From: a virus
Length of the DNA: 64,000 nucleotides
Virus record (IMG/VR): IMGVR_UViG_3300023179_009086
Coordinates: 1 to 64,000 of that record
Direction: 5' to 3' (one strand)
Under the pieces are notes generated by a model, which saw only the letters and a list, made by a program, of their open reading frames with translations, was not told the origin of the DNA and searched no databases. Below are positions 15,249 through 33,609 of the stretch, one piece after another. The position numbers and the translations under genes were made by a program. Positions within the stretch are counted from its first letter, which is position 1; each line of letters opens with the position of its first letter.

Positions 15249-16607
15249 CTAGCGTTTTCTCCTCATATCAATGAGGGAATTTTGAGAACTTCCTGTAACT
15301 TGAAGTCTATTAAAACCAGAATTTTTTCTTTGAATTTTTTTATGAATCTCACTAGCAACATTAGCTACTGCATCATCTTCAAGTGACATACTCATAGCCT
15401 TTACTCTATCTTTTTCTTTTTGAGAAGAAACTGCAGATTGAGCTTTACTTTCTTCTTTTAAAGTTTCTATTCTAGATTTAGGGAGTCCTAATCCAGCAAA
15501 CCAGCTATAGATTTTAACAGAATCTGTTTCAGATTCAACATCATAAATACCCTGAAATATAAAGGCGCCCTTTGTTTGTTCAGAAATCATATGAAAACAA
15601 TAATTAATATTAATGGCTGGAAGTTTATCTAAAACTTCTTTAGAACCAGTAATAATAACTCCACCCACCCTTGTTTGAGTTAAATCAAAACCTTCAGCTA
15701 GCATGTTAGAATTTAAACTATCAATAACTGATTCAGCTAGGGCGGTCTCATTCATATAATCTTCAACTTCAATGACACCATAAACAGAACAATCTCCTGC
15801 AGAAACAATCTTCCCGAAATCACTTGGATCCAGAGAAGTAAATCTTGATGGTCTAGAAGTTAAATGGTTAAAGACATCAATAGGTTCAACGATAGCTCTA
15901 TTGGAGGCCTCCCAGAATTTAGCCTGGGATAGATTTGCATAAATAGCCTCTATTCTAGCATTATCAACAACAACTAAAGAAGCAATAACATTGGCCGAGG
16001 AAAGTTTGGCTAACTTAGAAAGAGTTTCAAGGGAATTCTTTTTAGACTGAGAATCCTCTGTAGCTTTTGGCAATACATAAATAACTCCAACCGGAGTTCC
16101 AAACTCATATAACATAGGTACCATAGTTTCAACAGAGGAAGATCCAGTTCCTCCGCCACCAGAAACAGCTAGGTAAACCATATTATTGCCTTCAATAATT
16201 TTTCTAGAGAATTCTGTAATCTCATCCAGAGATGAAGCAAAAATCTCTCGACCCAATTCAAGATCTTTTCCGGTTCCGCCAAGAGTTCCGGTTAACAGAA
16301 GTTTGTTATGGGGAAGCACATCAATATATTCAAGATCTTGAGAAGAAGTGTTTATAACTCCAGCATCATAACCTAGCTTGTGAAAAACTTCGGCAATTCT
16401 AGAACCAGCCTGGCCGACACCTATTACGGCCATTTCAATAGCCACACTTCTTTTAGCAACGACTTTTGGCACTTCTTCCTCCACTTTCTTTTCTAATCTT
16501 CCTCTAAGTTTTTGTAAAGTAGCAGCATCTAAAGCAGATTTATTTAATGCAGATGTTAACTTATCATTTTCTTCTTTTATTTCTTCTTTTGTTTTATTTT
16601 GTTCCAT
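15249..16607 (-). CDS. Tubulin/FtsZ superfamily GTPase (PhuZ/TubZ/CetZ-like)
   Basis: IGVGQAGSRIA, INTS, GGTGKD, signature GGGGTGS, VVVDNA, LDPSDF. Start moved to 16607 (GAGGA SD). Confidence 0.88.
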   Translation of the reverse strand: MEQNKTKEEIKEENDKLTSALNKSALDAATLQKLRGRLEKKVEEEVPKVVAKRSVAIEMAVIGVGQAGSRIAEVFHKLGYDAGVINTSSQDLEYIDVLPHNKLLLTGTLGGTGKDLELGREIFASSLDEITEFSRKIIEGNNMVYLAVSGGGGTGSSSVETMVPMLYEFGTPVGVIYVLPKATEDSQSKKNSLETLSKLAKLSSANVIASLVVVDNARIEAIYANLSQAKFWEASNRAIVEPIDVFNHLTSRPSRFTSLDPSDFGKIVSAGDCSVYGVIEVEDYMNETALAESVIDSLNSNMLAEGFDLTQTRVGGVIITGSKEVLDKLPAININYCFHMISEQTKGAFIFQGIYDVESETDSVKIYSWFAGLGLPKSRIETLKEESKAQSAVSSQKEKDRVKAMSMSLEDDAVANVASEIHKKIQRKNSGFNRLQVTGSSQNSLIDMRRKR

Positions 16608-17547
16608 AAAAATCCTCACAATATTTATTGATTTGTTCTGCAATTGCAGATGGTTCTATAACTGCAAACGGAATTAAAGAATCAGACTGATTATACCCAG
16701 AAACTCTACATAAGTAGTTTGAATGCTCTTTCATCGGCTCAACATTAGAGGTAATAATATCACATCCAATTTTTTTAGCTTCAAAAAAACACATACCAAG
16801 ACCCTCCCTAGTTGAGGGGGCAATAATACAATCTGCTTCAGCATATGCATCATGAATTTCTTGCCTAGAAATTTTTTGACCAATAAAAGTTATTCTTTTA
16901 TCTTTTACTTCCATATTTTTGAGTCCAGAAATAATTAATCTAACTTTTTGAAAAGAAACTAATGAAAAAGAGTTAATAACAGCAGGTGTATTTTTTTGAT
17001 TAATTTCAGAATTAGATCCAGGATGATAAAAAGTTATTATATCTTTTTTTTCTTTTTTTATCTTGGAAAAATTAGGACAAAAATCCCAAGTTATTTTTTT
17101 TGCATTTGAAAAATTTTTAAATAGAAAAAATGTTTGATCTGTTAAACAATATACTTCAGAAAATTTTTTATATTTATTTTGATAAAGATCAGTTTTCATT
17201 GACCATTCGGGCATAGGAATGTCTATTACCTGCACTCCTATCTTAGAAATAGCCTCTACCCAATGAGAATCTTTTATAAAAGTTTCAAACGAAAATATTT
17301 TTTTAATATTATATTTTTTAATATAAGAAATAAGTTGTAAACTATAAGAAATATCACTATTAAATAATAAAAAATTATTCATTTCACTTTTAAAGTGTCC
17401 GGTCCATTTATTATTAACATAAATAAAACTTTTCTTAGGAATCATAAAAACTTGATTTCCTAATTGTTCTTGATAAATTTTAAAAGATTCAGCAAGATAA
17501 TATAAACCAGAAATAAATGGATATGTAATTACACCAATATTTTCCAT
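16594..17547 (-). CDS. GT-B (GT4-like) glycosyltransferase
   Basis: ADCIIAPSTREGLGMCFFEA (E-x7-E motif). Confidence 0.8.
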   Translation of the reverse strand: MENIGVITYPFISGLYYLAESFKIYQEQLGNQVFMIPKKSFIYVNNKWTGHFKSEMNNFLLFNSDISYSLQLISYIKKYNIKKIFSFETFIKDSHWVEAISKIGVQVIDIPMPEWSMKTDLYQNKYKKFSEVYCLTDQTFFLFKNFSNAKKITWDFCPNFSKIKKEKKDIITFYHPGSNSEINQKNTPAVINSFSLVSFQKVRLIISGLKNMEVKDKRITFIGQKISRQEIHDAYAEADCIIAPSTREGLGMCFFEAKKIGCDIITSNVEPMKEHSNYLCRVSGYNQSDSLIPFAVIEPSAIAEQINKYCEDFYGTK

Positions 17548-18242
17548 TATTGTTTCATTCTTTTTATAGAATCTTGTTTAATTTTTTCTACATTAGTTAA
17601 TAATAAATTAAGATTTTTTGGATTAGAAGTCAAAGAAACTTTATTAATAGTATCTCTATGATAAAGATACAATGGATCATGAATATAATTAATTTTATAT
17701 TTTTCAACAATTCTCAACCAAAGATCATAGTCTTCTGCTAAAAGATAACTTTCATTAAAGTTACCAACTTCTTCCAAAATTTTTCTCTTGACCATGACAG
17801 ATCCGGAAGCTACAAAGTTATTTTTAATCATATTATCATATGAGATATCTATTTCTTTTTTATAGAAAGGACTAGTAATTGTTATTCTATTAATCCAGAA
17901 TCTATAATTCCCACAGACCATGGCCGCATCATTTTGCATTAAACTATTTAAACTAGCTAGAATTCTTCCTGGTAACATAGCATCATCTGCATCAAGAAAA
18001 GCAATATACTCTGATGAACTATTTTTGATTCCCAAATTTCTAGCAGCAGCCGGACCTGAATTAGTATCAGTTTTTAAAAAATTAATTCCATATTTCATTG
18101 CAATTTTTTCAGGAGAATCTGAAGAGCAATCATCTATTAAATAGATATTTTTTTTTAAAATACCTTGTTTTAAGCAACTATTTAAAGCTGCTTCTAAATA
18201 TTTTGTTTGATTAAAAATTGGAATAATTACATCAACATTCAT
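17547..18242 (-). CDS. GT-A (GT2) glycosyltransferase
   Basis: VIIPIFN, IDDCSSD, NSGPAAARNLG, FLDADD, AEDYDLWLR. Confidence 0.9.
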   Translation of the reverse strand: MNVDVIIPIFNQTKYLEAALNSCLKQGILKKNIYLIDDCSSDSPEKIAMKYGINFLKTDTNSGPAAARNLGIKNSSSEYIAFLDADDAMLPGRILASLNSLMQNDAAMVCGNYRFWINRITITSPFYKKEIDISYDNMIKNNFVASGSVMVKRKILEEVGNFNESYLLAEDYDLWLRIVEKYKINYIHDPLYLYHRDTINKVSLTSNPKNLNLLLTNVEKIKQDSIKRMKQ

Positions 18243-19143
18243 TTAACAACCATAAATAATAATCTGATAATGTTTCTTTTTTAAAATTGCTAAGAATAAA
18301 TTCCCTAGCTCCCAAGGACAAATCTTCCCTTAATTTTTCATCTCTCAAAATTATTTCCGAGGCCCTACTTAATTCTTCAATATTTTTATTTACAATAATT
18401 CCTGTCTGATAATGAATACCCATCATAAAAACCCTAGGATGTGTAACCACTGGTACACCTGCAGCTAATTGCTCTAGTACTGCTTCAGATTTAGTTTCCG
18501 ACAAGCTAGTACAGACATATCCTGCGTAACTACTAGCTACCTCTACATGTTCCATGTATCTATATGGAATAGGATATCCTAACAAATCTAGCTTGTCAAC
18601 AATTTTTTTTCTTAACTCCAGTGCCGTATTTAAATCTTTTGAGTCATGGGAGGAATTTCCTTTCCATAAAATTTTATGGATTTTTTTTTCTTTAGGAGTC
18701 CAAAGGTCATAATCTGGTCCTGTCATAAATTCTTCAATTCTATAATTTAAATATTTTTTTAATTTATATTTAATTTCTTTATTAACAACTAAGATAAGAT
18801 CTGGATGTATATCTTTACAAAGTTTAATTTCTTTTTTTGGATCAGTTCCGTCAAACAAATTAGGACCCAAAATAATTTTTTTACCTTTTTGTTTTTCTTG
18901 TTTGACAATAAACAAAAATTCTTCTGTTAAACCGCTCCACCAATGGACGTAATTATTAGTTTTAAAATTATATTCTTTAATATTTTTAATATTAACATTA
19001 TTAATATCAGTTTGTAACTTTGTAAAAATATTAAAATTTACTTTACAAAATTTTGTAAAGTTCCAGCAGCTTATGCCTGGCCCATTAGTAAAATTTCCAT
19101 ATCCATAATTAAAAACTAAAAGATTAACATCTTCCATATTCAT
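18232..19143 (-). CDS. GT-B (GT4-like) glycosyltransferase
   Basis: TSLSETKSEAVLEQLAAGVPVV. Confidence 0.72.
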   Translation of the reverse strand: MNMEDVNLLVFNYGYGNFTNGPGISCWNFTKFCKVNFNIFTKLQTDINNVNIKNIKEYNFKTNNYVHWWSGLTEEFLFIVKQEKQKGKKIILGPNLFDGTDPKKEIKLCKDIHPDLILVVNKEIKYKLKKYLNYRIEEFMTGPDYDLWTPKEKKIHKILWKGNSSHDSKDLNTALELRKKIVDKLDLLGYPIPYRYMEHVEVASSYAGYVCTSLSETKSEAVLEQLAAGVPVVTHPRVFMMGIHYQTGIIVNKNIEELSRASEIILRDEKLREDLSLGAREFILSNFKKETLSDYYLWLLNEC

Positions 19144-19507
19144 CTTCTAATCTAACAACATCATCTAAATGATCAGTTGATGTTTCTATAATTTTAACGT
19201 CTTCATTTTCTGCATAAAAACGATGAATTAAATTAGCTTCTATATGAAATGAAGAACCTTCTATTAAATGATAATAATTTTCTATATTATTTTTTAATAT
19301 CATTAAAGTTAATGAACCAGAATCTATATAAATAGTTTCTTCTTTAATTTTATGAAATTGTTTGGATGTTTTATGTCCTTTTTTTATAAAAAGAATTTTA
19401 GAAACATATCCGGCTTCTTTACTATGCGCCCAAATAATCTCATAACCCCAAGGTTTTTCTATTTTTATTGTATTAAAATGTTGTTCAGGATAATGATGAT
19501 AAATCAT
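19124..19507 (-). CDS. Cupin, mannose-6-phosphate isomerase (type II C-terminal)-like
   Basis: EKPWG, SKQFHKIKEET, IHRF, DDVVRLEDEYGR. Confidence 0.78.
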   Translation of the reverse strand: MIYHHYPEQHFNTIKIEKPWGYEIIWAHSKEAGYVSKILFIKKGHKTSKQFHKIKEETIYIDSGSLTLMILKNNIENYYHLIEGSSFHIEANLIHRFYAENEDVKIIETSTDHLDDVVRLEDEYGRC

Positions 19508-20456
19508 GTAGATACATCTCTTCTAATAACATTTTCCAATTATATTCTGGTTTCCAACCTAATTTTTTTCTAGCTTTTTCAGCATTTCCAAGTAGATAAG
19601 AGACGTCTGATGGTCTCATAAATTTTTGATCTTGTTCATAAACATCTTCAAATTTTAAATCTGCAATAGTACAAACGTATTTTAACATTTCTTCTATTGT
19701 AGCTCCGGCTCCGGTGGCTATGATAAAATCATCAGGCTCTTCTTGCTGAAGCATTAAGTGCATCGCTTTACAATAATCCTTGGCATGACCTTCATCTCTG
19801 AAAGCATTTAAATTTCCCATTTTTATTTTTTGTTCTTTTCCTACTTTTATTTTTGCAATACCACTAGTAATTTTTCTAGTGGCAAAATCAAAACCCCTTC
19901 TAGGAGAGCTGTGATTGTGAAGAATACCATTACAAGCAAATAAATTATAAGACTTTCTATAATTAATTACTGACCAGTAAGCTGCTAATTTTGAAATAGC
20001 ATAAGGTGACATAGGATTCATTATATTTGTTTCTATAAAACCATTTTCAGGACAAATAGATGATCCAAATAACTCTGAAGTAGAAGCTTGATAGTATCTT
20101 GTATATGGAGAAATATTTCTAATTAATTCTAATTGATTAATTACCGCTTCTCCATTAATACGAAAAGAATATGTTGGTTCTATAAAAGACTGACCTACAT
20201 GAGACATTGCTGCAAGATTATACCACTCATGTGGTTTGTAATGATGCAAAATTCTGCAAATAAAAGTAGAATCAGTAATATCACCAATTAATAATTTAAA
20301 ATTATTATTATCAATAATTTGATTTAAATTATCTAATTCGTTTTTTGTACTTATTCTTCTAGTAATTCCTATAACTTTATAACCTAAAGATATAAGATGT
20401 TCTGATAAATAAGATCCATCTTGTCCGGCAACACCAGTTATTACTGCTATTAACAT
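19485..20456 (-). CDS. gmd: GDP-mannose 4,6-dehydratase
   Basis: ITGVAGQDGSYL, YNLAAMSHV, YQASTSELFG, SPYAISK, SPRRG.DFATRKIT, GNLNAFRD.GHAKDY. Confidence 0.92.
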   Translation of the reverse strand: MLIAVITGVAGQDGSYLSEHLISLGYKVIGITRRISTKNELDNLNQIIDNNNFKLLIGDITDSTFICRILHHYKPHEWYNLAAMSHVGQSFIEPTYSFRINGEAVINQLELIRNISPYTRYYQASTSELFGSSICPENGFIETNIMNPMSPYAISKLAAYWSVINYRKSYNLFACNGILHNHSSPRRGFDFATRKITSGIAKIKVGKEQKIKMGNLNAFRDEGHAKDYCKAMHLMLQQEEPDDFIIATGAGATIEEMLKYVCTIADLKFEDVYEQDQKFMRPSDVSYLLGNAEKARKKLGWKPEYNWKMLLEEMYLHDLSSLS

Positions 20457-20489
20457 ATTTTTCTCTATTTTATTTTACTTAAAAATTAT

Positions 20490-20523
20490 AAAAAAAGCAG
20501 CTAGTTCAAATTAGCTGCTTTTT
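20490..20523. terminator. Intrinsic terminator, potentially bidirectional
   Basis: AAAAAAGCAGCTA-GTTCAAAT-TAGCTGCTTTTT hairpin with A and T tracts, 8 nt after the endonuclease stop. Confidence 0.8.
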
Positions 20524-20531
20524 AAAAATTA

Positions 20532-22115
20532 TTAAATTATTTTTTTATACAATCTTTGTCCAGCATCATATATTTTTGTCCATTTTAATTCTTCTGCATA
20601 TTCTTTTTCAGATAAACATCTGGAATCCATATTTGCTCTACAAGCAAGTCGATTATATGTTGCTTTATTATCGGTCCATTTCCAACTCAAAATATCATGA
20701 TCCTTTTTAAATCCATGTTGGAGAAGAAAGCTTCCAACTCCATATCTAAGATCTACCCAATAATGAATTTCATTATATTTGCCAAATAATTTTTTTTCAA
20801 GATATGATAAGAGTTTGGAAAAGCCTCCAACAACTACTGTATTTAGTGCTGATGAGAGTCTTTCTATTATCAATTTCTTTCCTACAACTCTATATGAGAG
20901 ACAAGTCAAAATTTCATTATTATATTTTAAACATATATTTTTATATTTTCCACTTCCAGGTCCCATTAGATGGGTTCTTTCATAAAATGCTGATGCATCA
21001 GCAGAATTAATAATTTCTATTTTTGTTTTTCTTGCAAAAATTTTATTAGAAGTTTTTCCCAAAGAATTATCAACTATTGATTTAATTATATCAATCTTTG
21101 TCTCTATTTCATCAGATCTAAATTGAAAAATTCTAAAATTAAATAATTCATATTTTTCTCTCATAGAAAAATGATAATTCTTATTTTTAACTACATTATC
21201 TGAATGCCAATATAAACCATCGGCATTCAGATAATGTGATTCAGAAAGTTTAAAATCAGGTCTATAATTAATAATATCTTTATCTATTTCATTTATTTTT
21301 TTATTCCATTTTTGAATTCCAAAGGTATTTTCTATAATTTTTTCTATATTAGTTTTTGAAAAAATAAAATTAGAAATAAAATTATTAATATCTTCATCTG
21401 TATAATTTTCTTTATTTCTAATCCAATGACTAAACCAATATAGTGAAATATTAAATGTTTTAGAGAATTCAATTTTAGAATAAAATTTACCTTTATAATT
21501 TACTCCATATTTTTCCGCATATTTTTTTTTAGATTTATTTGCAATTTCTTTATTCATAGCAGGAGCAATTGCACCATATTTTTGGATATTTGTTTCTTCT
21601 ACTTTTTTTCTAATTTCAGGAAGAGACATTACCCATTCAACGCCATATTTCTTTAAATAAGTTTCTTTTTGCTTTGAAATTGCTAGATCTGATGCAGAAG
21701 CATGTTCAACACCATATCTTTCTAAAGATGTTTGTTTAAACTTTTCTTTTATTTCTTCACTTTGTAGTGGACTGTTTACCCCATATGAATCAAAAAGAGA
21801 TTTTTCTTGTTTTTGTTTAAACTCATCAATCTGCATTGCATTTTCTGAGCCATACTTTTCTTTCATAGTTGATTTTAATTTTAAAATTCTAGTTTCATCT
21901 ACTTTTTTAGCATTTTCTTTAGATCTTTTTAAATTAAATTTTTTTACATATTTGGCAATAACATTGATAGATGAATCAACTTCTTCAGCAATTTCTTTTA
22001 GAGTTTTATTTTCAATTATATACTTCTCTTCAAGCCAATGCTTATCTCTATAAGGTGGACTATAGTTTTTACCAAATCTAAAAGTTTCTAGTCTTCTATC
22101 TTTTTTCTCTTCCAT
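20532..22115 (-). CDS. Free-standing putative homing endonuclease (Hef-like): HTH, 23-aa repeats, Vsr/PD-(D/E)xK-like nuclease, C-terminal GNAT-like domain
   Basis: N-terminal WLEEKY...LKEIAEEV HTH; six xxYG repeats; RPDF...NADGLYWHS; KIFARKT...THLMG...VVGGFSKLL...VDLRYG. Confidence 0.65.
   Translation of the reverse strand: MEEKKDRRLETFRFGKNYSPPYRDKHWLEEKYIIENKTLKEIAEEVDSSINVIAKYVKKFNLKRSKENAKKVDETRILKLKSTMKEKYGSENAMQIDEFKQKQEKSLFDSYGVNSPLQSEEIKEKFKQTSLERYGVEHASASDLAISKQKETYLKKYGVEWVMSLPEIRKKVEETNIQKYGAIAPAMNKEIANKSKKKYAEKYGVNYKGKFYSKIEFSKTFNISLYWFSHWIRNKENYTDEDINNFISNFIFSKTNIEKIIENTFGIQKWNKKINEIDKDIINYRPDFKLSESHYLNADGLYWHSDNVVKNKNYHFSMREKYELFNFRIFQFRSDEIETKIDIIKSIVDNSLGKTSNKIFARKTKIEIINSADASAFYERTHLMGPGSGKYKNICLKYNNEILTCLSYRVVGKKLIIERLSSALNTVVVGGFSKLLSYLEKKLFGKYNEIHYWVDLRYGVGSFLLQHGFKKDHDILSWKWTDNKATYNRLACRANMDSRCLSEKEYAEELKWTKIYDAGQRLYKKII
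21495..21875 (-). repeat. Six degenerate 69-nt (23-aa) coding repeats, consensus about K.T...KYGVE
   Basis: YG codons recur at exactly 69-nt spacing (about 21505, 21574, 21643, 21712, 21781, 21850). Confidence 0.85.
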
Positions 22116-22156: not shown

Positions 22157-22165
22157 AGTACCACT

Positions 22166-24001: not shown

Positions 24002-24178
24002 GTTATATATTAAAATATTAATATTTTTTATAATAATTTTTTAATTCTATTTTTAAAAATTTTATTAAAAAATATTTAAGTAAAATTTTTATTTTATATA
24101 TCTGCTAATAAAAATTTAATTTTTTAAATAAATAATAAAATATAAAATTTAATACAACATTTACTACAATATTTTATA

Positions 24179-26322: not shown

Positions 26323-27233
26323 TTTCTTGACATCTTTAAACAATGTTCAAAAAATATTTCATAACTTAAAATTGTTTTATTCCATGAATATTCTTTTACA
26401 CTATTTATACAATTATTGGATAAATTTTCAAAATTTAATTTTTTTATAATATTAATTTTATTAATTAAATCTTCTATATTTCTTTCAAATAAAAAACCAT
26501 TATATCCGTCTTTTATTAAATATTTTGACCATCCAACTTTTGTGCTCAAAACTGGTATACCACACGCCAATGCTTCCAAAACTGGCATTGGACCACCCTC
26601 TGATTTTGAAGCACATATTAGAACAGATCCTTGATTATAAAAACTTGGCATTGCAGAGTTATCTATCTGCATATCTCTAGATTGAGTTAATAGTTTCAAA
26701 TCTTTTAATTTACTAAAAGTTGGAAATATAATATCACTATATCCTTTTATATCTCCATGATTGTTTTTGCTTGTATTTCCAGCCCATAAAAATATATTAT
26801 TAAAATTTAATTTTTTACTTTTAAAAAAAATATTTGGATCATATCCAGTTTGTGTCAAAAAAACTTTACTTGAATTTAGATCATTTTTTAAAGCAATTGA
26901 TGGAACACCAATGGCAATGTATTTATTACAAAAGTTTATAATATCTTTTTCAGACATACACCTCTTTTGCCAAGAGTTATAACTATGTATTCCTACACAT
27001 ATTTTGTTATTTGTAAAATTTCTAATATTATTTGGTCCAACTTTATGTATATTTCCCCAGTAAAACCAAAAAACTAAATCATAATTATTAAAATCTAATA
27101 TAATTTTTTTATTAAGAATATCTTCTTCATAAACTAACTCATAATTAAATTTTTTAGAAAATTTAATAATATTTTTAGCTATTATATCGTAAGCCCAGTC
27201 TTTAGTGTCTGCTACTATAAGTATTTTATTCAT
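26319..27233 (-). CDS. GT-B (GT4-like) glycosyltransferase
   Basis: CASKSEGGPMPVLEALACGIPVLSTKVG. Confidence 0.85.
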   Translation of the reverse strand: MNKILIVADTKDWAYDIIAKNIIKFSKKFNYELVYEEDILNKKIILDFNNYDLVFWFYWGNIHKVGPNNIRNFTNNKICVGIHSYNSWQKRCMSEKDIINFCNKYIAIGVPSIALKNDLNSSKVFLTQTGYDPNIFFKSKKLNFNNIFLWAGNTSKNNHGDIKGYSDIIFPTFSKLKDLKLLTQSRDMQIDNSAMPSFYNQGSVLICASKSEGGPMPVLEALACGIPVLSTKVGWSKYLIKDGYNGFLFERNIEDLINKINIIKKLNFENLSNNCINSVKEYSWNKTILSYEIFFEHCLKMSRK

Positions 27234-28356
27234 ATTTTTTTATAAAATTATAATAATCTAAGTTTTTATTTTTTTCTAATAAATTAATATTTTCAAAAAA
27301 TATATTAGAATAGTTTTTTTTCAAAATACCATTTGTTCCTAATTTTATTAAATTATTTGTTGCTTCAAAATTATTAAGATATAAAAGTTTTTTTGTTTCT
27401 TGTGATGCAAAAAGATTTTTATTTCCAAAATTATTATAAGCAATTACTGGTTTTTTCAAAAACATTGATTCTCTGATAGACCTTGACAAAGACTCCATCT
27501 TACAGCAATGTAGTATGCAGTCCATAGATTTTATATAAAAATTTGCATCAGGAACTAATCCTGTAATATTTACATAGTTTTGAATATTTAAATTCAAACA
27601 ATTATTTTTAATAGTTTGAATATATTCTTTATCTCCATCTCCTATAAAATATAATTTTCTAGGAAAAACAATATAGTTGTGTTTTTTTTCAATAGATTTA
27701 AAAATGTCAATTGCATCAAAAGGATTTTTAGATGGTTGAATTCTCCCTATAACTCCTATAGAAAATTCACTATTTGGTATATTAAAATTTTTCTTTCTAA
27801 ATTCTTTATAATCAAAATTATTTAATTCTAAATAACGTTTTAAGTTTAATGGTGGATGCAAATAAATAAATTTATTTTTTATTTTTAAATCTATATCTTT
27901 GTTTTTATTATATGTTAATGATAAATGATGATTTAAAGTTTCTTTTGAATTAAAAATAAAAAAATCAACATTTAAATTATCATTTAATGGAGATAAAACA
28001 TGAATAGAATTTTTTCCTGGAACATAAATATTTATATTTTTTTTATTTTTTAGTTCTTGTTTTATTTCATCATTTAATATTCTATATTGTAATATAAAAA
28101 AAAGATCAGTATTTTTTATATTTTCTAATAAAATATTTTTTGAATAAAATTCTTCTGTAAAAACTTCATTTGTTAAAATATTAAATCTTTTTGAAAAAAT
28201 ATCAAAATTAATAAAATCTTTAAATATATTATTATTTTCTATATCAAAATTAATCCAAGTATTATAATTTTTATTTTTAAAATATAAATATAATTCTATC
28301 ATTGATGTTTCTGCGCCACCAATGCCAGCTGGTGGTCTTATAATTCCTATTTTCAT
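27226..28356 (-). CDS. GT-B (GT4-like) glycosyltransferase
   Basis: IGGAE, IGRIQPSKN, MESLSRSIRESM..KKPVIA. Confidence 0.8.
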   Translation of the reverse strand: MKIGIIRPPAGIGGAETSMIELYLYFKNKNYNTWINFDIENNNIFKDFINFDIFSKRFNILTNEVFTEEFYSKNILLENIKNTDLFFILQYRILNDEIKQELKNKKNINIYVPGKNSIHVLSPLNDNLNVDFFIFNSKETLNHHLSLTYNKNKDIDLKIKNKFIYLHPPLNLKRYLELNNFDYKEFRKKNFNIPNSEFSIGVIGRIQPSKNPFDAIDIFKSIEKKHNYIVFPRKLYFIGDGDKEYIQTIKNNCLNLNIQNYVNITGLVPDANFYIKSMDCILHCCKMESLSRSIRESMFLKKPVIAYNNFGNKNLFASQETKKLLYLNNFEATNNLIKLGTNGILKKNYSNIFFENINLLEKNKNLDYYNFIKKYE

Positions 28357-28370
28357 GTTTTTCTCTTATT

Positions 28371-29243
28371 TTATTTTTTTAAAAAATTTAAAAAATTTTT
28401 AGATTGCTTTTTCCATGTCCAATTTTTTACTATTTCATTTTGAAATAAAATTCCATTTAAATTTAAATCAATATTATTATTTATAATATTGTTAACTTTT
28501 AAATTAAAATCATTTTCTGATATAATAATATTATCTTTTAAATTTTTGTTTTTAAATAATTCAGAAACATTTCCAACATTTGTTGATATTACATTTCTTC
28601 CACAAGCTGATGCTTCTAGCACTGGATTTGGAGTTCCCTCTGATGAGCTATAGCATATTAAAGTTCCTATTTTATTGTAAAAATCTACCATTTGGTTTTC
28701 ATCAAACAAATCTTTATTTGTAGCTGTTATTAGTTTTGCATTTTTATTTTTTAAAATTATATTTTTAATAATTTCAAACCTTTTTTCTTTTCTATCAGAA
28801 TTACCTACAAATCCAAAAATATTTTTATATTCATTTGGATTTGTATATTTTTTATATATTTTTTCATCCACACCAAATGGTGTATAATAAAATGAATTAT
28901 AATATTTTTTATACTCTTCTAGTAAATGAATATTTGATACACTAAATTTTTTATGTTTTAATAAAATTTCTTTAATATTTATTGGTCTATTTTTTTCATG
29001 GCTACTTATTGTAGTTATTAAATTTAAATCTTTATTTATTAAATAAGGTTCAATAATTTTATAGATTGGCCAATTTAATAAATAAATTATATCAAAATTT
29101 TTTAAATTAAAATTTTTAACTTCATTAAAATGAATAATTTCTGCATTTAAATTTAAATGTTTTTTTAAATTCATAGCCCTTTTATATAAGGCCCATTTAT
29201 AACTATCTACTATAAATAAATATTTTAAATTATTTGTTTCCAT
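28371..29243 (-). CDS. GT-B (GT4-like) glycosyltransferase
   Basis: SSSEGTPNPVLEASACGRNVISTNVG. Confidence 0.85.
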   Translation of the reverse strand: METNNLKYLFIVDSYKWALYKRAMNLKKHLNLNAEIIHFNEVKNFNLKNFDIIYLLNWPIYKIIEPYLINKDLNLITTISSHEKNRPINIKEILLKHKKFSVSNIHLLEEYKKYYNSFYYTPFGVDEKIYKKYTNPNEYKNIFGFVGNSDRKEKRFEIIKNIILKNKNAKLITATNKDLFDENQMVDFYNKIGTLICYSSSEGTPNPVLEASACGRNVISTNVGNVSELFKNKNLKDNIIISENDFNLKVNNIINNNIDLNLNGILFQNEIVKNWTWKKQSKNFLNFLKK

Positions 29244-30136
29244 TTTTCTATATATGTTTTAATATTAAAATATTTAATAGCTGTTTCTCTACCAGCATTT
29301 GAAATTTGATCATAAAGCGTTTTATTAGATAATAATAAATTAACTGCCTTTATCATACTATTTGGATCATTTGCAATTAAACTATTTACTTTATCTTTAA
29401 AATAAAATGGTGTATCATAATTTGAGGTTGTAATTATTGGCAAACCACACATCATGGCTTCGCCTCTAGATCTTGGAACTGCACTATGCAATGCTGTATT
29501 TAGATATCCAGAGTATGAATTATAAATATCAACTAATTTTGGATATGGAAATGTTCCAATATTAGATGGTATTCCTTCATTGCCATGACCAATTACGTCA
29601 CAAATTTTAGTCTGATCATTAACAAGTTTCCAATTAGAATATCCTAAAAATTCCCCTCTTTGTTTAAATAAACTATATGATGATAATATTCTTTTATTTT
29701 TAATTATATTTAATAGTTTAAATTCATTTGGATCAAAACCATGAACTATGTGATAGTGTTTTTTGGCTGGCATTTGTTTTTTAAATTTGTCCATAGATAC
29801 TTTTGAATTCCAGACAACAATTTTACACCAATCTGGAATTTTAAATGGAGTATGTGTTTGAACTACTGCTATTGGTTTTGCGCCATTTTTTACAAATGGA
29901 TAATAATCTTCATGTTTTATTCCAGATCTAATCATTATAACATCAGGAGATATATCTTTTAAATTATCTTTTGTTATAAAATTGACATTATCTTGTTTTG
30001 GCCTTCCCAATGATTCATGCGTATGCAATTCATTATTTACTCCCATACAATAAAATGTTGCATTATTTTTAAAAAATTCATATTGATGACCACCATGTAC
30101 TAGGAAGTCTAAAACTTTAGGATATGATTTCATCAA
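29225..30136 (-). CDS. GT-B (GT4-like) glycosyltransferase
   Basis: IVHGFD, YLNTALHSAVPRSRGEAMMCGLPIIT. Confidence 0.78.
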   Translation of the reverse strand: MMKSYPKVLDFLVHGGHQYEFFKNNATFYCMGVNNELHTHESLGRPKQDNVNFITKDNLKDISPDVIMIRSGIKHEDYYPFVKNGAKPIAVVQTHTPFKIPDWCKIVVWNSKVSMDKFKKQMPAKKHYHIVHGFDPNEFKLLNIIKNKRILSSYSLFKQRGEFLGYSNWKLVNDQTKICDVIGHGNEGIPSNIGTFPYPKLVDIYNSYSGYLNTALHSAVPRSRGEAMMCGLPIITTSNYDTPFYFKDKVNSLIANDPNSMIKAVNLLLSNKTLYDQISNAGRETAIKYFNIKTYIEKWKQII

Positions 30137-31154
30137 TTGTTTTCTCTATAATATTTGAGACATTTTTTATTGAAAAATCATTAAATAAATTAGATTTTTT
30201 TATTTTATTATTAAATACAAATCTTAATCTTTCTTTTAAAGATTCAATATTTGGTTTTGCCCATTTTTGATCACTAGAGTATAGTTTATTCCATTCCATT
30301 CCAGTTACTGGAACAATTTTATGATTAATATAATAAATGTTTTCTTTTAAAAAATCAGTAATACCACCGTATTTTGTTGTAATAATTGGATTACCAAAAA
30401 ATGCTGCCTCATGAATGGGCATACCCCAGCCCTCTCCATAGTGTGGTAGAACAAAACAATCACTATAATTATGCAAAGAATAAATATTACTTTCAGATAA
30501 ATAATCTGATATTAAAAAAACTTTTGCTTTACTATTATAGTATTTTTTTATTTTTTGTATTTGCTCTATTATATCTGAAACTTTTAAATTAGAAATTAAA
30601 TTAATTTTTAAAATTAAAACAACTTCTTCTCCATATTTAAATTCATCAAAATAAGCATTTAATAATTCATTATAACCTTTTCTTGGTTGCCATTGAAAAA
30701 TAGAATAAAATTTATAATAATTTGGATTTAAAAAATATTTAGATAAAGTATTTTTTAATTTAATATTTTCCGTATTTAAATTAGCAAGAGATGGAGTTGG
30801 AATTATTTTAATGGGATTTTTGTACCCAGCCTTAAGACAAACCTCCTTTACCAATTCACATGGAGCCCAAATTTCGTCAGAATCAATAATACTTTTCGAC
30901 CATTTCTCTGGTAAAGAATCAGTTTCCCAATAAAAATAAATAATTCGATATTTTCCAGATCTATCAGCTGGATAGGGTGGATGATTTAAAAAGAATTCTA
31001 TATCATATTTTAAATTATGATCATATGAAATAATATCATGAATAATTTTATAATCAATTTTATGATTTAAAATTTCTTGAAATGATTTTTTAAAAGCCTC
31101 TGTAGCCATTCCATATCCAGAATTGCTTTTAACTCCATTAAAAATTATATTCAT
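30117..31154 (-). CDS. GT-B (GT4-like) glycosyltransferase
   Basis: SGYG, WETDSLP, DEIWAP, QPRKG, CFVLPHYGEGWGMPIHEA. Confidence 0.87.
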   Translation of the reverse strand: MNIIFNGVKSNSGYGMATEAFKKSFQEILNHKIDYKIIHDIISYDHNLKYDIEFFLNHPPYPADRSGKYRIIYFYWETDSLPEKWSKSIIDSDEIWAPCELVKEVCLKAGYKNPIKIIPTPSLANLNTENIKLKNTLSKYFLNPNYYKFYSIFQWQPRKGYNELLNAYFDEFKYGEEVVLILKINLISNLKVSDIIEQIQKIKKYYNSKAKVFLISDYLSESNIYSLHNYSDCFVLPHYGEGWGMPIHEAAFFGNPIITTKYGGITDFLKENIYYINHKIVPVTGMEWNKLYSSDQKWAKPNIESLKERLRFVFNNKIKKSNLFNDFSIKNVSNIIEKTIDEIIS

Positions 31155-32527
31155 ATTATTATTCCATCAATAATTTTCATTTTATTATCAATATTAATTT
31201 CTATTGGTTTTTTAAAATCTTGAATAATTCTTTTAAAAAATATATTTGCAATATTTTCTGCATTATATTCTTTTGATTTTAAAACATTTTTATAATTATA
31301 GTTATAGTTATCATTAATAAATAATTTAATTTTATTAAAATCATAATTTATTTTATCAAATGTTAAAGAAATTGTATCTTTTAAAAGATCTGGTATTCCA
31401 CCAACTTCGGTACTTAAAATAGGCAGGCCTGATGCTAATGCTTCTAAGATAACATTTGGAACACCTTCCATTTCTGAGGTTAATAGTAAGCAATCAATTT
31501 TCTTATAAAAATCTAAAGCATTCTGCCATCCCAACATAGTAACATTTTTTCCTTTAGAATATGAAATTACTTCTAATTTTAATGGTCCATCACCAGCTAT
31601 ATATAAAGGTAAATTTAATTTTTCAGCTAGATCTATAGCTAATAATGGATTTTTTTCTTTAGAAAGTCTTCCTATAAAACCTAGATTTTTAATTTTAGTT
31701 GTTTTTCTGGAAAAATTAAATTTATTAAAATCTAATGGTGGAGGACAAATAATTTGTTCTTCAACATTAATATTTTTACCAACAAGAGTGGAGGTTTTAA
31801 AAACTACATCTATATTTTCTCTTTTTTCTATTAAAGACATAGCATCTGGCCATACAAAATCACTATGATAAATTTCATAAATTTTAATAGAAGGATTTAA
31901 TTTTTTATATGATAATAAATCATTATATAATTTTTTACTATTATAAAAAATTATTTGTTCATAACTATTTAAATTTAAAAATTGAAATAAATTATTTAAA
32001 TAATTTTTTATTTTAATATTTTTTGAAAATGTTGAATTTTTAATTTTATTATCAGAATTAATTAATAAATCAATAGGTAAATATGAAGGAACAAATTTTA
32101 ATAAATTTTCTAAATAAACTTCTGCGCCACCATATAATTGATATGGAATAATAAAACATATTTTAGCATATAAATCTATATATTCTTCTTTTTGTTTTGA
32201 AATAATTAATCTATTTATAATAATTTTTCCAATAGATCCTTTATTTTTTTCAATTAAAATTTCATCAGGCTCTTGGGGTAAAGAGCAATGTATTTTTTTT
32301 ACATTAAAAATATTAGAATCAATTATTTCTTTTATATTTTTTAATAAAATTTTATTTTTAAAAAATGAAATATTTAAAAAACTATCTCCAGATTGTTTTT
32401 TGCAAATTAATTCAATAATAAAATTATTACTTAAATTACTTACTGGAAGTTTAATTTTGTAATTAGAAAAAATTTCTATAGGAAAATTATATAAATTTTT
32501 ATTAAACTGTGAATCAAAAAGTTTCAT
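31151..32527 (-). CDS. GT-B (GT4-like) glycosyltransferase with an extra ~115-aa N-terminal domain
   Basis: YGGAE, IGRLSKEKN, AGDGP, TSEMEGVPNVILEALASGLP. Confidence 0.87.
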   Translation of the reverse strand: MKLFDSQFNKNLYNFPIEIFSNYKIKLPVSNLSNNFIIELICKKQSGDSFLNISFFKNKILLKNIKEIIDSNIFNVKKIHCSLPQEPDEILIEKNKGSIGKIIINRLIISKQKEEYIDLYAKICFIIPYQLYGGAEVYLENLLKFVPSYLPIDLLINSDNKIKNSTFSKNIKIKNYLNNLFQFLNLNSYEQIIFYNSKKLYNDLLSYKKLNPSIKIYEIYHSDFVWPDAMSLIEKRENIDVVFKTSTLVGKNINVEEQIICPPPLDFNKFNFSRKTTKIKNLGFIGRLSKEKNPLLAIDLAEKLNLPLYIAGDGPLKLEVISYSKGKNVTMLGWQNALDFYKKIDCLLLTSEMEGVPNVILEALASGLPILSTEVGGIPDLLKDTISLTFDKINYDFNKIKLFINDNYNYNYKNVLKSKEYNAENIANIFFKRIIQDFKKPIEINIDNKMKIIDGIII

Positions 32528-33609
32528 TTTATTAAATTTTCAATTTGTTTTGCAACACTATTCCAATTATATGTTTCTTTTAATATTTCATTATTTAAAA
32601 ATAATTTTTGAAATAAATTATTATAATTTTTATAAGCATTAATCATTTCTTGTGCTAAATGATTTACATCGGGCATATAAATTTTTGCACCTTTATTCAC
32701 TCTCCAATATTGATATTTTTCATCAGCTTCTACTTGTTTTACATCAATTAATAAAGAATTTTTATCATTTAAAAAATCTAATTGTCCGGTGCATCTAGGG
32801 GCAATAATAATTTTATTTAAAAACAAACCTTCTAATAAAGGTAAACCAAATCCTTCTGATGATGAAGCACTAACTACAGCATCACAAACATTATAAAGTG
32901 GTACAATATCATCAAGAGTATCAATAACAACTTCAACCGTTGGAAGATTTTTACCAAATTTTTTTTGAGCGTTCATTAATTGTTCTAAAAAATAACATTC
33001 AAATTTATGTTTTGGTTTATTAAGATTAGTTTTTATAACTAAACATACATCATCATCTTCTTTAAAAGCAGAATAATAAGCTTCTAAAATTAAATTTATA
33101 TTTTTTCTATAATGTGGTATTGAAATATTTAGAAATTTAAATTTTTTATTATTTTTTAATAAAAATTTATTCTTGTTATTAAGTATAGATAAATCTATAC
33201 CATGTGGTATAGTAATACATTTTTTAGAATCCCATCCGTTAGCTATAAAATTTTCTCTAGTCCAATTGCTAGATGGAAAAACATAATCAATATGTTTTAA
33301 TTCTGATATCCATTCTTTAGGTAAAATAGAAGATTCATAATTATAAATTGCTGCTTTTACTTTAGATTTTTTATTAAATCTTGTATTAAAATTTACGGGT
33401 AGAGTATAAGCAATATCAAGATCTGGAGATGGATGCCATTTTTCCAAATCTTTAATTAAATTATCAGGTATTAATTCTCTTCCGTTAATTGATTTTAAAT
33501 ATAAATTATTGCCTCTATTTTTAAAAGCAGTAAGTAACCCTCTCATAGTTACCGCCCAACTATGAGAGGTTCCAAGCATAGTTTCAGACCTTATATTTAA
33601 AAAATTCAT
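32524..33609 (-). CDS. GT-B (GT4-like) glycosyltransferase
   Basis: IPHGID, HYRKN, SSSEGFGLPLLEG. Confidence 0.87.
   Translation of the reverse strand: MNFLNIRSETMLGTSHSWAVTMRGLLTAFKNRGNNLYLKSINGRELIPDNLIKDLEKWHPSPDLDIAYTLPVNFNTRFNKKSKVKAAIYNYESSILPKEWISELKHIDYVFPSSNWTRENFIANGWDSKKCITIPHGIDLSILNNKNKFLLKNNKKFKFLNISIPHYRKNINLILEAYYSAFKEDDDVCLVIKTNLNKPKHKFECYFLEQLMNAQKKFGKNLPTVEVVIDTLDDIVPLYNVCDAVVSASSSEGFGLPLLEGLFLNKIIIAPRCTGQLDFLNDKNSLLIDVKQVEADEKYQYWRVNKGAKIYMPDVNHLAQEMINAYKNYNNLFQKLFLNNEILKETYNWNSVAKQIENLIK

What the first reader, a model, noticed from the sequence alone, without database searches (positions are those of the whole stretch)
16594..33609. 17-kb glycosylation island directly behind the baseplate/fibre genes: candidate virion glycan-coat pathway
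Seen: 9 GT-B and 1 GT-A transferases, GlmS, Gmd, an NDP-sugar dehydrogenase, a cupin, a methyltransferase and a sulfotransferase-like gene. The island starts 27 nt after the last tail gene. I see no flippase, polymerase, ABC exporter, priming phosphoglycosyltransferase or obviously membrane-spanning protein, and no base hydroxymethylase. Established: host surface-polysaccharide loci need export machinery; DNA glucosylation needs a modified base and few GTs; virion glycosylation is known in giant viruses and some mycobacteriophages. Inference: a cytoplasmically built, multi-residue glycan (amino-, deoxy- and uronic sugars, methylated or sulfated) is attached to virion proteins.
Basis: partly seen in the sequence, partly recalled or inferred. 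Interest (0 to 1): 0.8.

Follow-up and report, generated by a model that had tools for sequence, protein, structure and literature searches.

The report
Jumbo-phage glycan-building gene island
An uncultured lake jumbo phage carries, between its giant tail genes and its tubulin gene, a 17-kb block of soluble sugar-making and sugar-adding enzymes with no export machinery; it probably decorates a phage-made protein, perhaps the virus particle, but the target is unproven and similar blocks are known in other large viruses.

Summary
Window 16594-33609 (minus strand) has 17 tightly packed ORFs. They are 9 GT-B (GT4-like) and 1 GT-A transferases, GlmS, Gmd, a cupin, a truncated NDP-sugar dehydrogenase, a SAM methyltransferase and a sulfotransferase-fold protein. 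None has a membrane segment.

The island is an old, syntenic feature of a clade of uncultured aquatic jumbo myophages (contigs up to 434 kb). It always lies between a ~1500-aa tail-module protein and a phage tubulin. Both ends are conserved and the centre varies, so it spans 5-44 kb.

Relatives that are 94-100% complete lack a priming transferase and a thymidylate-synthase-type hydroxymethylase. The two scanned whole lack any polytopic exporter-like protein. A cytoplasmic glycan is therefore well supported. Virion proteins as the acceptor remains inference (about 0.45).

New here: the island's last GT is fused in frame to the tubulin in many relatives. In this phage the two are separate genes overlapping by 14 nt, and contigs from two other studies show the same sequence.

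This scan has already noted the GT-tubulin fusion and several comparable phage glycan islands on other DNA. Jumbo cyanophage and giant-virus glycan clusters are published.

Verdict: a real new member of a known kind, with the target unresolved.

The parts
32524..33609 (-). GT-B (GT4-like) transferase, the first island gene, 27 nt after the 1505-aa tail-module gene. It is the most widely kept island gene.
   Evidence: Pfam Glycos_transf_1, E 3.8e-10. EX7E motif EGFGLPLLE. Orthologs at 50-54% identity sit next to the fibre-like gene in G001, G002, G003 and G007, at 78% in L010 and at 31-32% in L037/G008. In G006, G009 and G010 a 50-52% ortholog lies upstream of the tubulin; their fibre gene was not examined.
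31151..32527 (-). GT4 transferase with an extra N-terminal all-beta domain of about 120 aa. This domain is a candidate acceptor-recognition module (inference).
   Evidence: Pfam E 3.4e-20. AF2 pLDDT 90: residues 1-120 are all strands and 121-458 are GT-B. Foldseek best hits are GT4 enzymes such as WbnH, BshA, MshA and PglA; their lengths (324-400 aa) fit a match to the GT-B core alone, though aligned ranges were not given. 55 representative clusters at E<=1e-30.
26319..31154 (-). Five further GT-B transferases: 30117-31154, 29225-30136, 28371-29243, 27226-28356 and 26319-27233.
   Evidence: Pfam. EX7E is present in four of the five; 29225-30136 lacks it. Orthologs in G003 and G007 are collinear at 32-52% identity.
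25618..26343 (-). Sulfotransferase-fold protein. The likely start is the ATG at 26322 (234 aa).
   Evidence: No Pfam, NCBIfam or PHROG hit. AF2 pLDDT 85, pTM 0.85. Nearly all of the best Foldseek PDB hits are PAPS sulfotransferases (CurM ST, TPST1/2, 3-OST), TM about 0.5. G10, R11, G13, T14, R112 and S120 are invariant.
24967..25611 (-). Class I SAM-dependent methyltransferase, probably a glycan O- or N-methylase.
   Evidence: Pfam Methyltransf_11, E 1.2e-19. In G007 its ortholog is fused to a GT-B in a 501-aa protein.
24179..24970 (-). Short NDP-sugar 6-dehydrogenase-like protein (263 aa) without the C-terminal UDP-binding domain.
   Evidence: Pfam UDPG_MGDP_dh_N plus the central domain. TIGR03026 140.8 bits, below the 189.8 cut-off, covering positions 73-294 of 413. 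The catalytic motif GGHCFPKD aligns to UGDH 7kws. The short form is kept at 50-58% identity in relatives.
22166..24001 (-). GlmS, glutamine--fructose-6-phosphate transaminase, the committed step to hexosamines.
   Evidence: NCBIfam NF001484 585 bits and TIGR01135 582 bits, both above cut-off.
20532..22115 (-). DUF7487/HNH homing endonuclease. It is a selfish insert, not a glycan gene.
   Evidence: PF24308, E 2.5e-23. phrog_3339 homing endonuclease, E 6.2e-46. Homologs sit at other positions in L032 and L034.
20492..20523 (-). Terminator-like hairpin (12-bp stem followed by a T run) right after the endonuclease gene.
19485..20456 (-). GDP-mannose 4,6-dehydratase (Gmd).
   Evidence: PF16363, E 5.7e-103. 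TIGR01472 339.6 bits; it is the best family but below the 415-bit equivalog cut-off. 59-66% identical in relatives.
19124..19507 (-). Small cupin, probably a mannose-6-phosphate isomerase-type sugar isomerase.
   Evidence: Weak hits to MannoseP_isomer, Cupin_2 and Lyx_isomer and to the C-terminal PMI part of TIGR01479. 44-54% identical in relatives.
17547..19143 (-). GT-A (17547-18242) and GT-B (18232-19143), part of the conserved block on the tubulin side.
   Evidence: Pfam Glycos_transf_2 E 2.1e-29 and Glycos_transf_1 E 3.1e-7. Orthologs at 36-46% identity are found in nearly all relatives.
16594..17547 (-). GT-B (GT4-like), the last island gene. Its stop overlaps the tubulin start by 14 nt, and its ortholog is fused in frame to the tubulin in many relatives.
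   Evidence: Pfam E 5e-11. EX7E motif EGLGMCFFE. Fused open frames of 800-831 aa in L001-L009 and L033. At least 75 fused protein clusters in public data. K and both E of EX7E are invariant.
15249..16607 (-). Phage tubulin/FtsZ-family GTPase (ATG at 16607). It is the conserved downstream neighbour of the island and is fused to it in relatives.
   Evidence: Pfam Tubulin, E 2.9e-12. The junction sequence ATGGAACAAAATAA follows a T5 run. The identical sequence is found in contigs of two other studies.
33637..47671 (-). Two giant tail-module proteins (1505 aa and 3159 aa) directly upstream of the island. They are candidate fibres and candidate glycan acceptors; both roles are inferred.
   Evidence: They follow Baseplate_J (47679-50990) and a baseplate protein (51001-51429). 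Orthologs at 33-41% identity lie in the same order in G001-G003 and G007. No family or PDB match.

Best explanation
The island is a self-contained cytoplasmic glycosylation module that this clade of uncultured aquatic jumbo myophages has inherited vertically.

Supply enzymes draw host fructose-6-phosphate into hexosamine (GlmS) and mannose/6-deoxyhexose (cupin isomerase, Gmd) pools. A short dehydrogenase-like protein may add a uronic acid. Host enzymes must supply the mutase and nucleotidyl-transfer steps. Ten soluble transferases then assemble a hetero-oligosaccharide, which a methyltransferase and a PAPS-type sulfotransferase tailor.

No lipid-carrier priming enzyme, flippase, polymerase or exporter is encoded. 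The glycan is therefore most likely built directly on a phage-made protein in the cytoplasm. The most plausible acceptors are virion proteins: the giant tail/fibre proteins encoded just upstream, or the capsid or tail surfaces. The result would be a variable sugar coat.

Shown: gene content, solubility, synteny and the absence of export or DNA-modification partners in complete relatives. Inferred: the order of steps, the sugars made and, above all, the acceptor.
For: 1. Content: 10 GTs plus GlmS, Gmd, cupin, dehydrogenase-like, methyltransferase and sulfotransferase-fold genes. Catalytic motifs are intact.
2. No transmembrane segment in any island protein, here or in the islands of G001-G003 and G007. 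The only exception is two small G001 proteins, each with a single N-terminal hydrophobic segment and no Pfam match.
3. The refuting condition, 'exporters elsewhere', fails in relatives. The whole 316-kb G001 (94% complete) and the complete terminal-repeat genome G007 (335 kb) have no polytopic protein except a tape-measure-like one and an M50 peptidase. G001 has no Bac_transf, Glycos_transf_4 or Polysacc_synt, and ABC_tran only below cut-off. G006-G008 (99-100% complete) have no Bac_transf.
4. Every Glycos_transf_1 gene of G001 lies in this one locus.
5. Position is conserved. The ortholog of 32524 sits 5-44 kb upstream of the tubulin in 9 genomes whose tubulins are 44-69% identical to the window's. 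GT divergence tracks that of structural proteins: GT 50-54%, fibre-like 40-41%, baseplate wedge 44-51%. This points to vertical inheritance with the virion genes, not recent capture from hosts. In G001 the island's GC equals the genome's (42.2% vs 43.3%).
6. Conserved ends with a variable centre is the pattern expected for a surface-exposed, diversifying glycan. Giant-virus fibril glycosylation clusters show the same pattern (PMC10117803).
7. Spacing is tight from the tail genes into the island: a 27-nt gap, mostly overlapping genes, and only one strong terminator-like hairpin (12-bp stem, after the endonuclease) among the weaker consensus matches.
8. Precedent: mycobacteriophages glycosylate capsid and tail-tube proteins with their own GTs (summarised in PMC12363180 and PMC12619734).
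Against: - There is no direct evidence for any acceptor.
- No Ser/Thr-rich tail or other acceptor signature appears in the tail-module proteins of this contig. The capsid gene was not identified.
- GT4 and GT2 enzymes of O-antigen and capsule pathways are usually also soluble or peripheral (my own knowledge). Lack of TM segments in the GTs alone therefore does not exclude host lipid-linked acceptors and host exporters.
- The island is physically coupled to the tubulin, a non-virion protein fused to the last GT in many relatives. It also sits where the tail genes meet the tubulin/helicase genes, a boundary that I infer could collect accessory genes.
- Published opinion on the most similar phage clusters, in jumbo cyanophages, favours host-surface modification (PMC7824862, PMC12801897).
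- This phage's own genome is only about 23% recovered, so its own complement is untested.
Confidence: 0.45

Rival explanations
1. Host-envelope remodelling. The soluble or peripheral phage GTs build on a host lipid-linked primer (Und-PP-sugar or lipid A-core). The host's own flippase, polymerase, ligase or ABC transporter then exports the altered glycan. This changes the infected cell's surface, for example to block superinfection or grazing.
For: - This is the standing interpretation of the multi-GT, cupin, SDR and NDP-sugar clusters of jumbo cyanophages such as P-SSM2, S-SCSM1 and S-SCSM2R (13 GTs, 22 cell-wall genes) (PMC7824862; PMC12801897).
- The nearest NCBIfam neighbours of the island GTs are surface-polysaccharide enzymes (TuaG, TuaC, EpsD, WcaA, PglJ, TviE), all far below cut-off.
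- A variable centre with conserved flanks is also typical of O-antigen and capsule loci (my own knowledge).
Against: - No priming transferase, flippase, polymerase, ligase or ABC transporter was found in G001, and no priming transferase in G006-G008. G001 and G007 have no polytopic exporter-like protein.
- Ten GTs would give an unusually large repeat unit for host Wzx/Wzy to accept (my own knowledge).
- The GTs are core genes that diverge in step with virion proteins across hosts whose phages have 27-47% GC. They do not look host-matched.
- One GT is fused to a cytoplasmic filament-forming tubulin.
Confidence: 0.22
2. A non-virion cytoplasmic target linked to the tubulin. The glycan is built on or along the phage tubulin filament, on the tubulin itself, or on another intracellular phage structure or a soluble product. 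The GT-tubulin fusion would serve to place the enzyme there.
For: - The last island GT is fused in frame to the tubulin in 10 of the 15 related loci fetched, and in at least 75 protein clusters from JGI, ENA, Tara and NCBI data.
- Where the two are separate, they stay adjacent and overlap.
- The GT domain keeps its invariant K and EX7E, so it is probably active.
Against: - The fusion involves only one of the ten GTs.
- The linker is long and charged, so it looks like a tether rather than a defined complex.
- The most distant relative, L037/G008, has an SDR rather than a GT before its tubulin.
- A filament-tethered enzyme is equally compatible with glycosylating virion parts that assemble or travel on the filament.
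Confidence: 0.18
3. DNA hypermodification. The transferases glycosylate modified bases of the phage genome to evade restriction.
For: Phage GTs that decorate hydroxymethylated bases with varied glycans are known (cited in PMC12619734 as Pyle et al. 2024).
Against: - No thymidylate-synthase-family hydroxymethylase in the contig, in G001-G003, or in the 99-100% complete G006-G008.
- Ten GTs plus a methyltransferase and a sulfotransferase far exceed what I know of DNA glycosylation systems (my own knowledge).
- ThyX-type and other base-modifying routes were not searched.
Confidence: 0.03

Closest known systems
Megavirinae (giant-virus) fibril glycosylation gene clusters (PMC10117803), and chlorovirus capsid glycosylation as recalled from memory
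   Same: These are virus-encoded clusters that combine nucleotide-sugar pathway enzymes with many GTs (6-33 genes). They act without lipid-carrier export machinery, make bacterial-type sugars, and differ in content between clades within a conserved framework.
   Different: They belong to eukaryotic giant viruses, and their glycans were shown chemically on fibrils. Here the virus is a tailed phage, nothing is shown chemically, the island sits between tail genes and a tubulin gene, and one GT is coupled to tubulin.
Mycobacteriophage virion glycosylation (Che8, Corndog, Myrna; Freeman et al. 2023, known here through PMC12363180 and PMC12619734)
   Same: Phage-encoded GTs modify virion proteins in the cytoplasm, and no exporter is involved.
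   Different: Those systems are described by a few GTs (Che8 gp110, Corndog gp38) and act on C-termini of capsid and tail-tube subunits, as PMC12363180 and PMC12619734 report. This island has ten GTs plus sugar supply, methylation and sulfation. No such tails were found. tblastn of GT 32524-33609 against 50,697 phage records gave no mycobacteriophage hit, only Streptomyces phage GTs at 26-29% identity and one Microcystis phage hit.
Jumbo cyanophage 'LPS / capsular polysaccharide modification' clusters (P-SSM2, S-SCSM1, S-SCSM2R; PMC7824862, PMC12801897)
   Same: These are large tailed aquatic phages with clusters of paralogous GTs, cupin isomerases, SDR epimerases/dehydratases and methyltransferases. 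The product and target are unknown.
   Different: The cyanophage clusters are described as sporadic and polymorphic, and are read as host-surface systems. Here the locus has a fixed position and conserved ends across a deep clade, exporters are absent from the relatives checked, and a tubulin link and a sulfotransferase are present.
Cytoplasmic O-glycosylation of serine-rich repeat adhesins by GtfA/GtfB and follow-on GTs (recalled from memory, not tested)
   Same: A GT4-family enzyme starts protein O-glycosylation in the cytoplasm, and several soluble GTs extend the glycan before the protein leaves the cell.
   Different: No serine-rich acceptor is evident here, and no DUF1975-type insertion. 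The extra module in GT 31151-32527 is an N-terminal beta domain.

Membership tests
Bacterial Wzx/Wzy- or ABC-dependent surface-polysaccharide locus | An initiating phosphoglycosyl transferase (Bac_transf PF02397 or Glycos_transf_4 PF00953) | tested here: not met
   PF02397 and PF00953 are absent from the contig and G001-G003. PF02397 is also absent from G006-G008.
Bacterial Wzx/Wzy- or ABC-dependent surface-polysaccharide locus | A flippase/polymerase or ABC-2 exporter, that is, polytopic membrane proteins | tested here: not met
   PF01943 is absent and PF00005 scores only below cut-off. A hydropathy scan of whole G001 and G007 finds no protein with 4 or more TM segments except a tape-measure-like protein and an M50 peptidase. 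PF04932 and PF01061 were not searched by profile.
Phage DNA glycosylation / hypermodification | A base hydroxymethylase of the thymidylate-synthase family supplying the acceptor base | tested here: not met
   PF00303 is absent from the contig, G001-G003 and G006-G008.
Virus-autonomous glycosylation cluster (Megavirinae/chlorovirus type) | One cluster encodes both nucleotide-sugar pathway enzymes and multiple GTs | tested here: met
   All Glycos_transf_1 genes of G001 lie in this locus.
Virus-autonomous glycosylation cluster (Megavirinae/chlorovirus type) | Content is clade-specific and variable within a conserved framework | tested here: met
   Ends are conserved and the centre varies, spanning 5-44 kb across 9 genomes.
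Virus-autonomous glycosylation cluster (Megavirinae/chlorovirus type) | The glycan is demonstrated on virion proteins | not testable with these tools
   This needs virions. There is no cultured relative.
Mycobacteriophage-type virion glycosylation | Phage GT genes lie within or next to the structural operon | tested here: met
   The island starts 27 nt after the last tail-module gene, on the same strand, with no terminator-like hairpin listed in that gap.
Mycobacteriophage-type virion glycosylation | Acceptor tails at the C-termini of capsid or tail-tube subunits | tested here: inconclusive
   No Ser/Thr-rich stretch stands out in any protein of the contig. The capsid gene is not on this contig, and acceptor rules for this clade are unknown.
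Jumbo-cyanophage polysaccharide-modification cluster | Paralogous GTs with cupin isomerase, SDR enzymes and methyltransferases in a large tailed phage | tested here: met
   compared with the description in PMC7824862.
Jumbo-cyanophage polysaccharide-modification cluster | The product is a host surface polysaccharide | not testable with these tools
   In the passages read, this is offered as a suggestion for the cyanophage clusters, not as a demonstrated result (PMC7824862, PMC12801897).
PAPS-dependent sulfotransferase (for 25618-26343) | Sulfotransferase fold with a 5'-phosphosulfate-binding loop and a 3'-phosphate-binding Arg/Ser pair | tested here: inconclusive
   The fold matches: nearly all of the best Foldseek hits are sulfotransferases, though TM is only about 0.5 and the best E is 2e-4. 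The loop GRCGTGYL and the R112-x7-S120 pair are invariant in 7 homologs. Matching these to the canonical motifs rests on my memory. No profile hit.
NDP-sugar 6-dehydrogenase (for 24179-24970) | Three domains: N-terminal Rossmann, central domain with the catalytic Cys, C-terminal UDP-binding | tested here: not met
   Only model positions 73-294 of 413 are covered and the score is below cut-off. The catalytic Cys motif is present. The C-terminal domain is absent here and in orthologs of 262-281 aa.

The most novel reading that the evidence does not exclude
A glycosylation line organised on a cytoskeleton in a bacterial virus. The phage tubulin filament carries a tethered GT4 enzyme, fused in most of the related loci fetched and translationally coupled in this phage. 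The rest of the island's soluble enzymes work around it to lay a methylated, sulfated hetero-oligosaccharide onto the giant tail/fibre proteins, or onto whole virion parts, as they assemble on the filament. The variable centre of the island would then give each lineage its own virion 'serotype'.
Probability: 0.15. Interest if true: 0.85.

Novelty: new member of a known kind. Interest (0 to 1): 0.55.

Why it matters
What large aquatic phages do with their many glycosyltransferase genes has been an open question since the cyanophage 'LPS clusters' were described.

This clade gives an unusually clean case. The locus has a fixed position and is vertically inherited. It lies between tail genes and a tubulin gene. 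Near-complete and complete relatives rule out self-encoded export and the classical route to DNA glycosylation.

If the product is a virion coat, tailed phages would join giant viruses in making complex, lineage-specific and possibly sulfated sugar coats. That would bear on adsorption, stability, grazing and aggregation of virus particles in lakes and oceans.

The GT-tubulin coupling also suggests that a phage cytoskeleton can position an enzyme. I found no published description of this in the papers searched.

Tried and rejected
- Complex prediction on the window's separate GT (16594-17547) and tubulin returned 'no answer' (score 0.00). It counts neither for nor against binding.
I could not fetch the 146-kb contig that carries an identical sulfotransferase-like protein, nor the short contigs of close relatives. 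The T5 junction was checked with read laying instead.
- The RNA run X7 laid nothing on the junction, so there is no expression evidence.
- Megablast of the island against 50,697 phage records gave no match.
- tblastn of the baseplate wedge and of GT 32524 found only remote hits (Bacillus phage G 29%; Streptomyces phage GTs 26-29%), so there is no cultured relative.
- The 1505-aa and 3159-aa proteins have no Pfam or PHROG family (only two sub-threshold Pfam hits for the 1505-aa one). Neither has a significant PDB-sequence match, and the protein atlas gave no hit for the 1505-aa protein. Their 'fibre' label stays positional.
- Promoter reasoning led nowhere. Sigma-70-like sites are no more frequent than in shuffles (164 vs 161). 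The T4 late motif TATAAATA (recalled from memory) lies upstream of only two island genes and of no tail gene.
- A search for Ser/Thr-rich acceptor tails or N-x-S/T enrichment found nothing distinctive.
- Recent horizontal capture as the island's origin was considered. The distal half of the island is lower in GC (21% vs 29%). However, the same genes are collinear at 32-52% identity in G003 and G007, and G001's island matches its genome's GC. I therefore rejected recent capture.
- A homopolymer assembly error as the cause of the GT/tubulin split was considered and rejected.
- The Freeman et al. 2023 paper itself is not held. It is cited only through papers that summarise it.
- I could not tell whether this clade is the 'moraphage' lineage of PMC12619734, which has four core GT groups. 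That paper never mentions tubulin.

Full report
**What is there.** The window is the first 64 kb of a 76.6-kb viral contig. The contig is estimated at about 23% complete. All real genes are on the minus strand and GC is 19-34% in 2-kb windows.

Between 33609 and 16594 lie 17 ORFs that mostly overlap or sit a few bases apart. Pfam, NCBIfam and PHROG scans give:
- nine Glycos_transf_1-type GT-B proteins
- one Glycos_transf_2 GT-A
- GlmS, above the curated cut-off
- Gmd, the clear best family but below the equivalog cut-off
- a 127-aa cupin whose weak hits are to mannose-6-phosphate/lyxose isomerase cupins
- a class I SAM methyltransferase
- a 263-aa NDP-sugar dehydrogenase-like protein
- a 241-aa protein with no family

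The endonuclease gene is followed by a strong terminator-like hairpin. Homologs of it sit at other places in relatives, so it is a selfish insert.

I folded the family-less protein with six close homologs and one distant ortholog (pLDDT 85). Nearly all of its best Foldseek matches are PAPS-dependent sulfotransferases. A GRxGT loop and an R-x7-S pair are invariant.

The dehydrogenase keeps the catalytic GGxCxPKD motif but lacks the C-terminal UDP-binding domain and part of the Rossmann domain. This short form is conserved in relatives. It is a real variant whose activity is uncertain.

**Flanks.** Upstream in transcription lie a baseplate protein (51001-51429), Baseplate_J/wedge (47679-50990), and then a 3159-aa and a 1505-aa protein. 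The two giants match nothing known, so 'fibre' is a positional inference. Downstream lie a tubulin/FtsZ-family gene (15249-16607) and a UvsW-like helicase.

**Membrane and export.** A Kyte-Doolittle scan finds no TM segment in any island protein. The contig has no priming transferase, no Wzx-type flippase, no ABC ATPase above cut-off and no thymidylate-synthase-type hydroxymethylase.

- Whole G001 (316 kb, 94% complete) and whole G007 (335 kb, terminal repeats, complete) were fetched and scanned. Their only proteins with four or more TM segments are a tape-measure-like giant and, in G007, an M50 peptidase far from the island.
- Profile searches are also negative in G006-G008, which are 99-100% complete. 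Only Bac_transf and Thymidylat_synt were searched there.
- All Glycos_transf_1 genes of G001 lie in this one locus.

**Conservation.** Searches with the tubulin, the 1505-aa protein and a tubulin alignment retrieved 16 related loci from viral metagenome contigs of 48-434 kb.
- The order wedge, giant protein, ~1500-aa protein, island, tubulin is kept in G001, G002, G003 and G007.
- The ortholog of GT 32524-33609 lies 5-44 kb upstream of the tubulin in all nine genomes long enough to tell.
- Both ends are conserved. On the tail side are four GT-Bs at 29-54% identity. On the tubulin side are GT-B, GT-A, GT-B, cupin and Gmd at 35-66% identity.
- The centre varies. G003 and G007 are nearly collinear with the window.
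- G001 adds phosphomannomutase, a DegT aminotransferase, a MocA-type oxidoreductase, an AsnB-like amidotransferase, two sulfotransferases and a second SDR. It also carries unrelated genes.
- G007 adds a sulfatase-family protein, a nucleotidyltransferase, DUF711, GSCFA and a GT-B::methyltransferase fusion.
- The most distant genome, G008 (tubulin 44-47% identical), keeps a minimal ~6-kb version: GT-B, GT-A, two proteins with no Pfam match, GT-A, two small unknown ORFs and an SDR.

GT divergence tracks that of structural proteins, and in G001 the island has the genome's GC. The island is therefore ancient and vertically inherited. It is not a recent host-derived cassette, although in this phage its distal half is lower in GC (21% vs 29%).

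The window lacks the second SDR (a possible 4-reductase/epimerase) that most relatives have after Gmd. How its GDP-4-keto-6-deoxymannose is finished is open. From memory, the chlorovirus Gmd also reduces its own product; that is a lead, not a test.

**The tubulin link.** In 10 of the 15 related loci that carry the tubulin, the last island GT and the tubulin form one open frame of 800-831 aa. A database search finds at least 75 such fused clusters carrying both PF00534 and PF00091, on contigs up to 348 kb from JGI, ENA, Tara and NCBI sources. It also finds many stand-alone 450-480-aa tubulins.

The GT domain keeps an invariant Lys and both Glu of EX7E. In the window the two are separate genes overlapping by 14 nt (ATGGAACAAAATAA). 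One T fewer in a T5 run would fuse them, as in G001.

The split is real in this lineage.
- The same sequence, without gaps, occurs in assembled contigs of runs from two other studies.
- The closest tubulins (86-87% identical) are stand-alone proteins of 450-452 aa.

A structure prediction of the separate pair gave no verdict. This scan had already noted the fusion on other DNA. I found no published description.

**Other structure work.** GT 31151-32527 has a confident N-terminal all-beta domain of about 120 aa in front of a GT4 core. It is a candidate acceptor-binding module, but nothing more can be said.

**Interpretation.** The data strongly support a phage-autonomous, cytoplasmic glycan-building system that depends on the host only for precursor activation. 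They do not identify the acceptor.

Virion proteins are the best guess, at about 0.45, for four reasons:
- co-inheritance with, and tight spacing behind, the tail genes
- absence of any export route in complete relatives
- conserved ends with a variable centre, as in giant-virus fibril glycosylation clusters (PMC10117803)
- the mycobacteriophage precedent (PMC12363180, PMC12619734)

The main rival, at about 0.22, is remodelling of host surface glycans through host carriers and exporters. This is the published reading of the jumbo-cyanophage clusters (PMC7824862, PMC12801897).

A non-virion, tubulin-associated target is about 0.18. DNA glycosylation is unlikely, at about 0.03.

**Novelty.** Multi-GT glycan clusters in large aquatic phages and giant viruses are known, and this scan has flagged several comparable islands elsewhere. 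The island is therefore a new member of a known kind.

Its distinctive points are the fixed position between tail and tubulin genes across a deep clade, the clean absence of export and hydroxymethylase partners in the relatives checked, the sulfotransferase, and the GT-tubulin coupling.

There is no cultured relative, which limits direct testing. The phage occurs in lake and freshwater metagenomes of at least three studies.

Noticed in passing
window 15249-17547; L001-L009, L033: The island's last GT-B is fused in frame to the phage tubulin (800-831 aa) in 10 of the 15 related loci that carry the tubulin, and in at least 75 public protein clusters. In the window one extra T in a T5 run (about 16603-16613) makes two genes that overlap by 14 nt. 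The same sequence occurs in contigs of two other studies.
   Followed up: yes
window 20532-22115, hairpin 20492-20523; L032 15113-16525; L034 2444-3991 and 18021-19436: A DUF7487/HNH homing endonuclease sits between GlmS and Gmd and has its own terminator-like hairpin. Homologs at 37-40% identity sit at different positions in relatives, so it looks mobile.
   Followed up: partly
L036 390-935 and 2085-2504 (= G007 189723-191867): The Gmd ortholog of G007 is one 714-aa open frame. Its two ends match Gmd residues 1-183 and 183-322, so about 390 aa are inserted at one point. This looks like an intein, but I did not examine it.
   Followed up: no
window 24179-24970 and orthologs in G001, G002, G003, G007: A conserved short NDP-sugar dehydrogenase-like protein (262-281 aa). 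It keeps the catalytic Cys motif but lacks the whole C-terminal UDP-binding domain and part of the Rossmann domain. How it binds its substrate is unexplained.
   Followed up: partly
G007 176240-177745 (L046): A 501-aa protein fuses a GT-B (ortholog of window 28371-29243) to the island's SAM methyltransferase (ortholog of 24967-25611). This ties methylation to the glycan pathway.
   Followed up: partly
window 24001-24179: The second SDR (26-30% identical to Gmd, possibly a reductase/epimerase) that lies beside Gmd or GlmS in most relatives is missing here. In G003 it lies between the dehydrogenase-like gene and GlmS. The window has only a 177-nt gap at that place.
   Followed up: partly
L011 6046-15756 (G001 island centre): G001's 40-kb version of the island also holds genes unrelated to glycans: NifU, a MotA/ExbB-like protein, a PcfJ-like 1122-aa protein, a DUF5591 825-aa protein and, nearby, a 710-aa Fis-type HTH protein. 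The site therefore also collects other cargo.
   Followed up: no
window 53531-61519: A 2662-aa protein has four strongly hydrophobic segments at residues about 1618-1733. Its G001 and G007 counterparts look the same. It is probably the tape-measure protein.
   Followed up: no
L038 6182-6841 (G007): A 219-aa, four-TM Peptidase_M50 (site-2 protease-like) gene is the only small polytopic membrane protein in this complete jumbo-phage genome.
   Followed up: no
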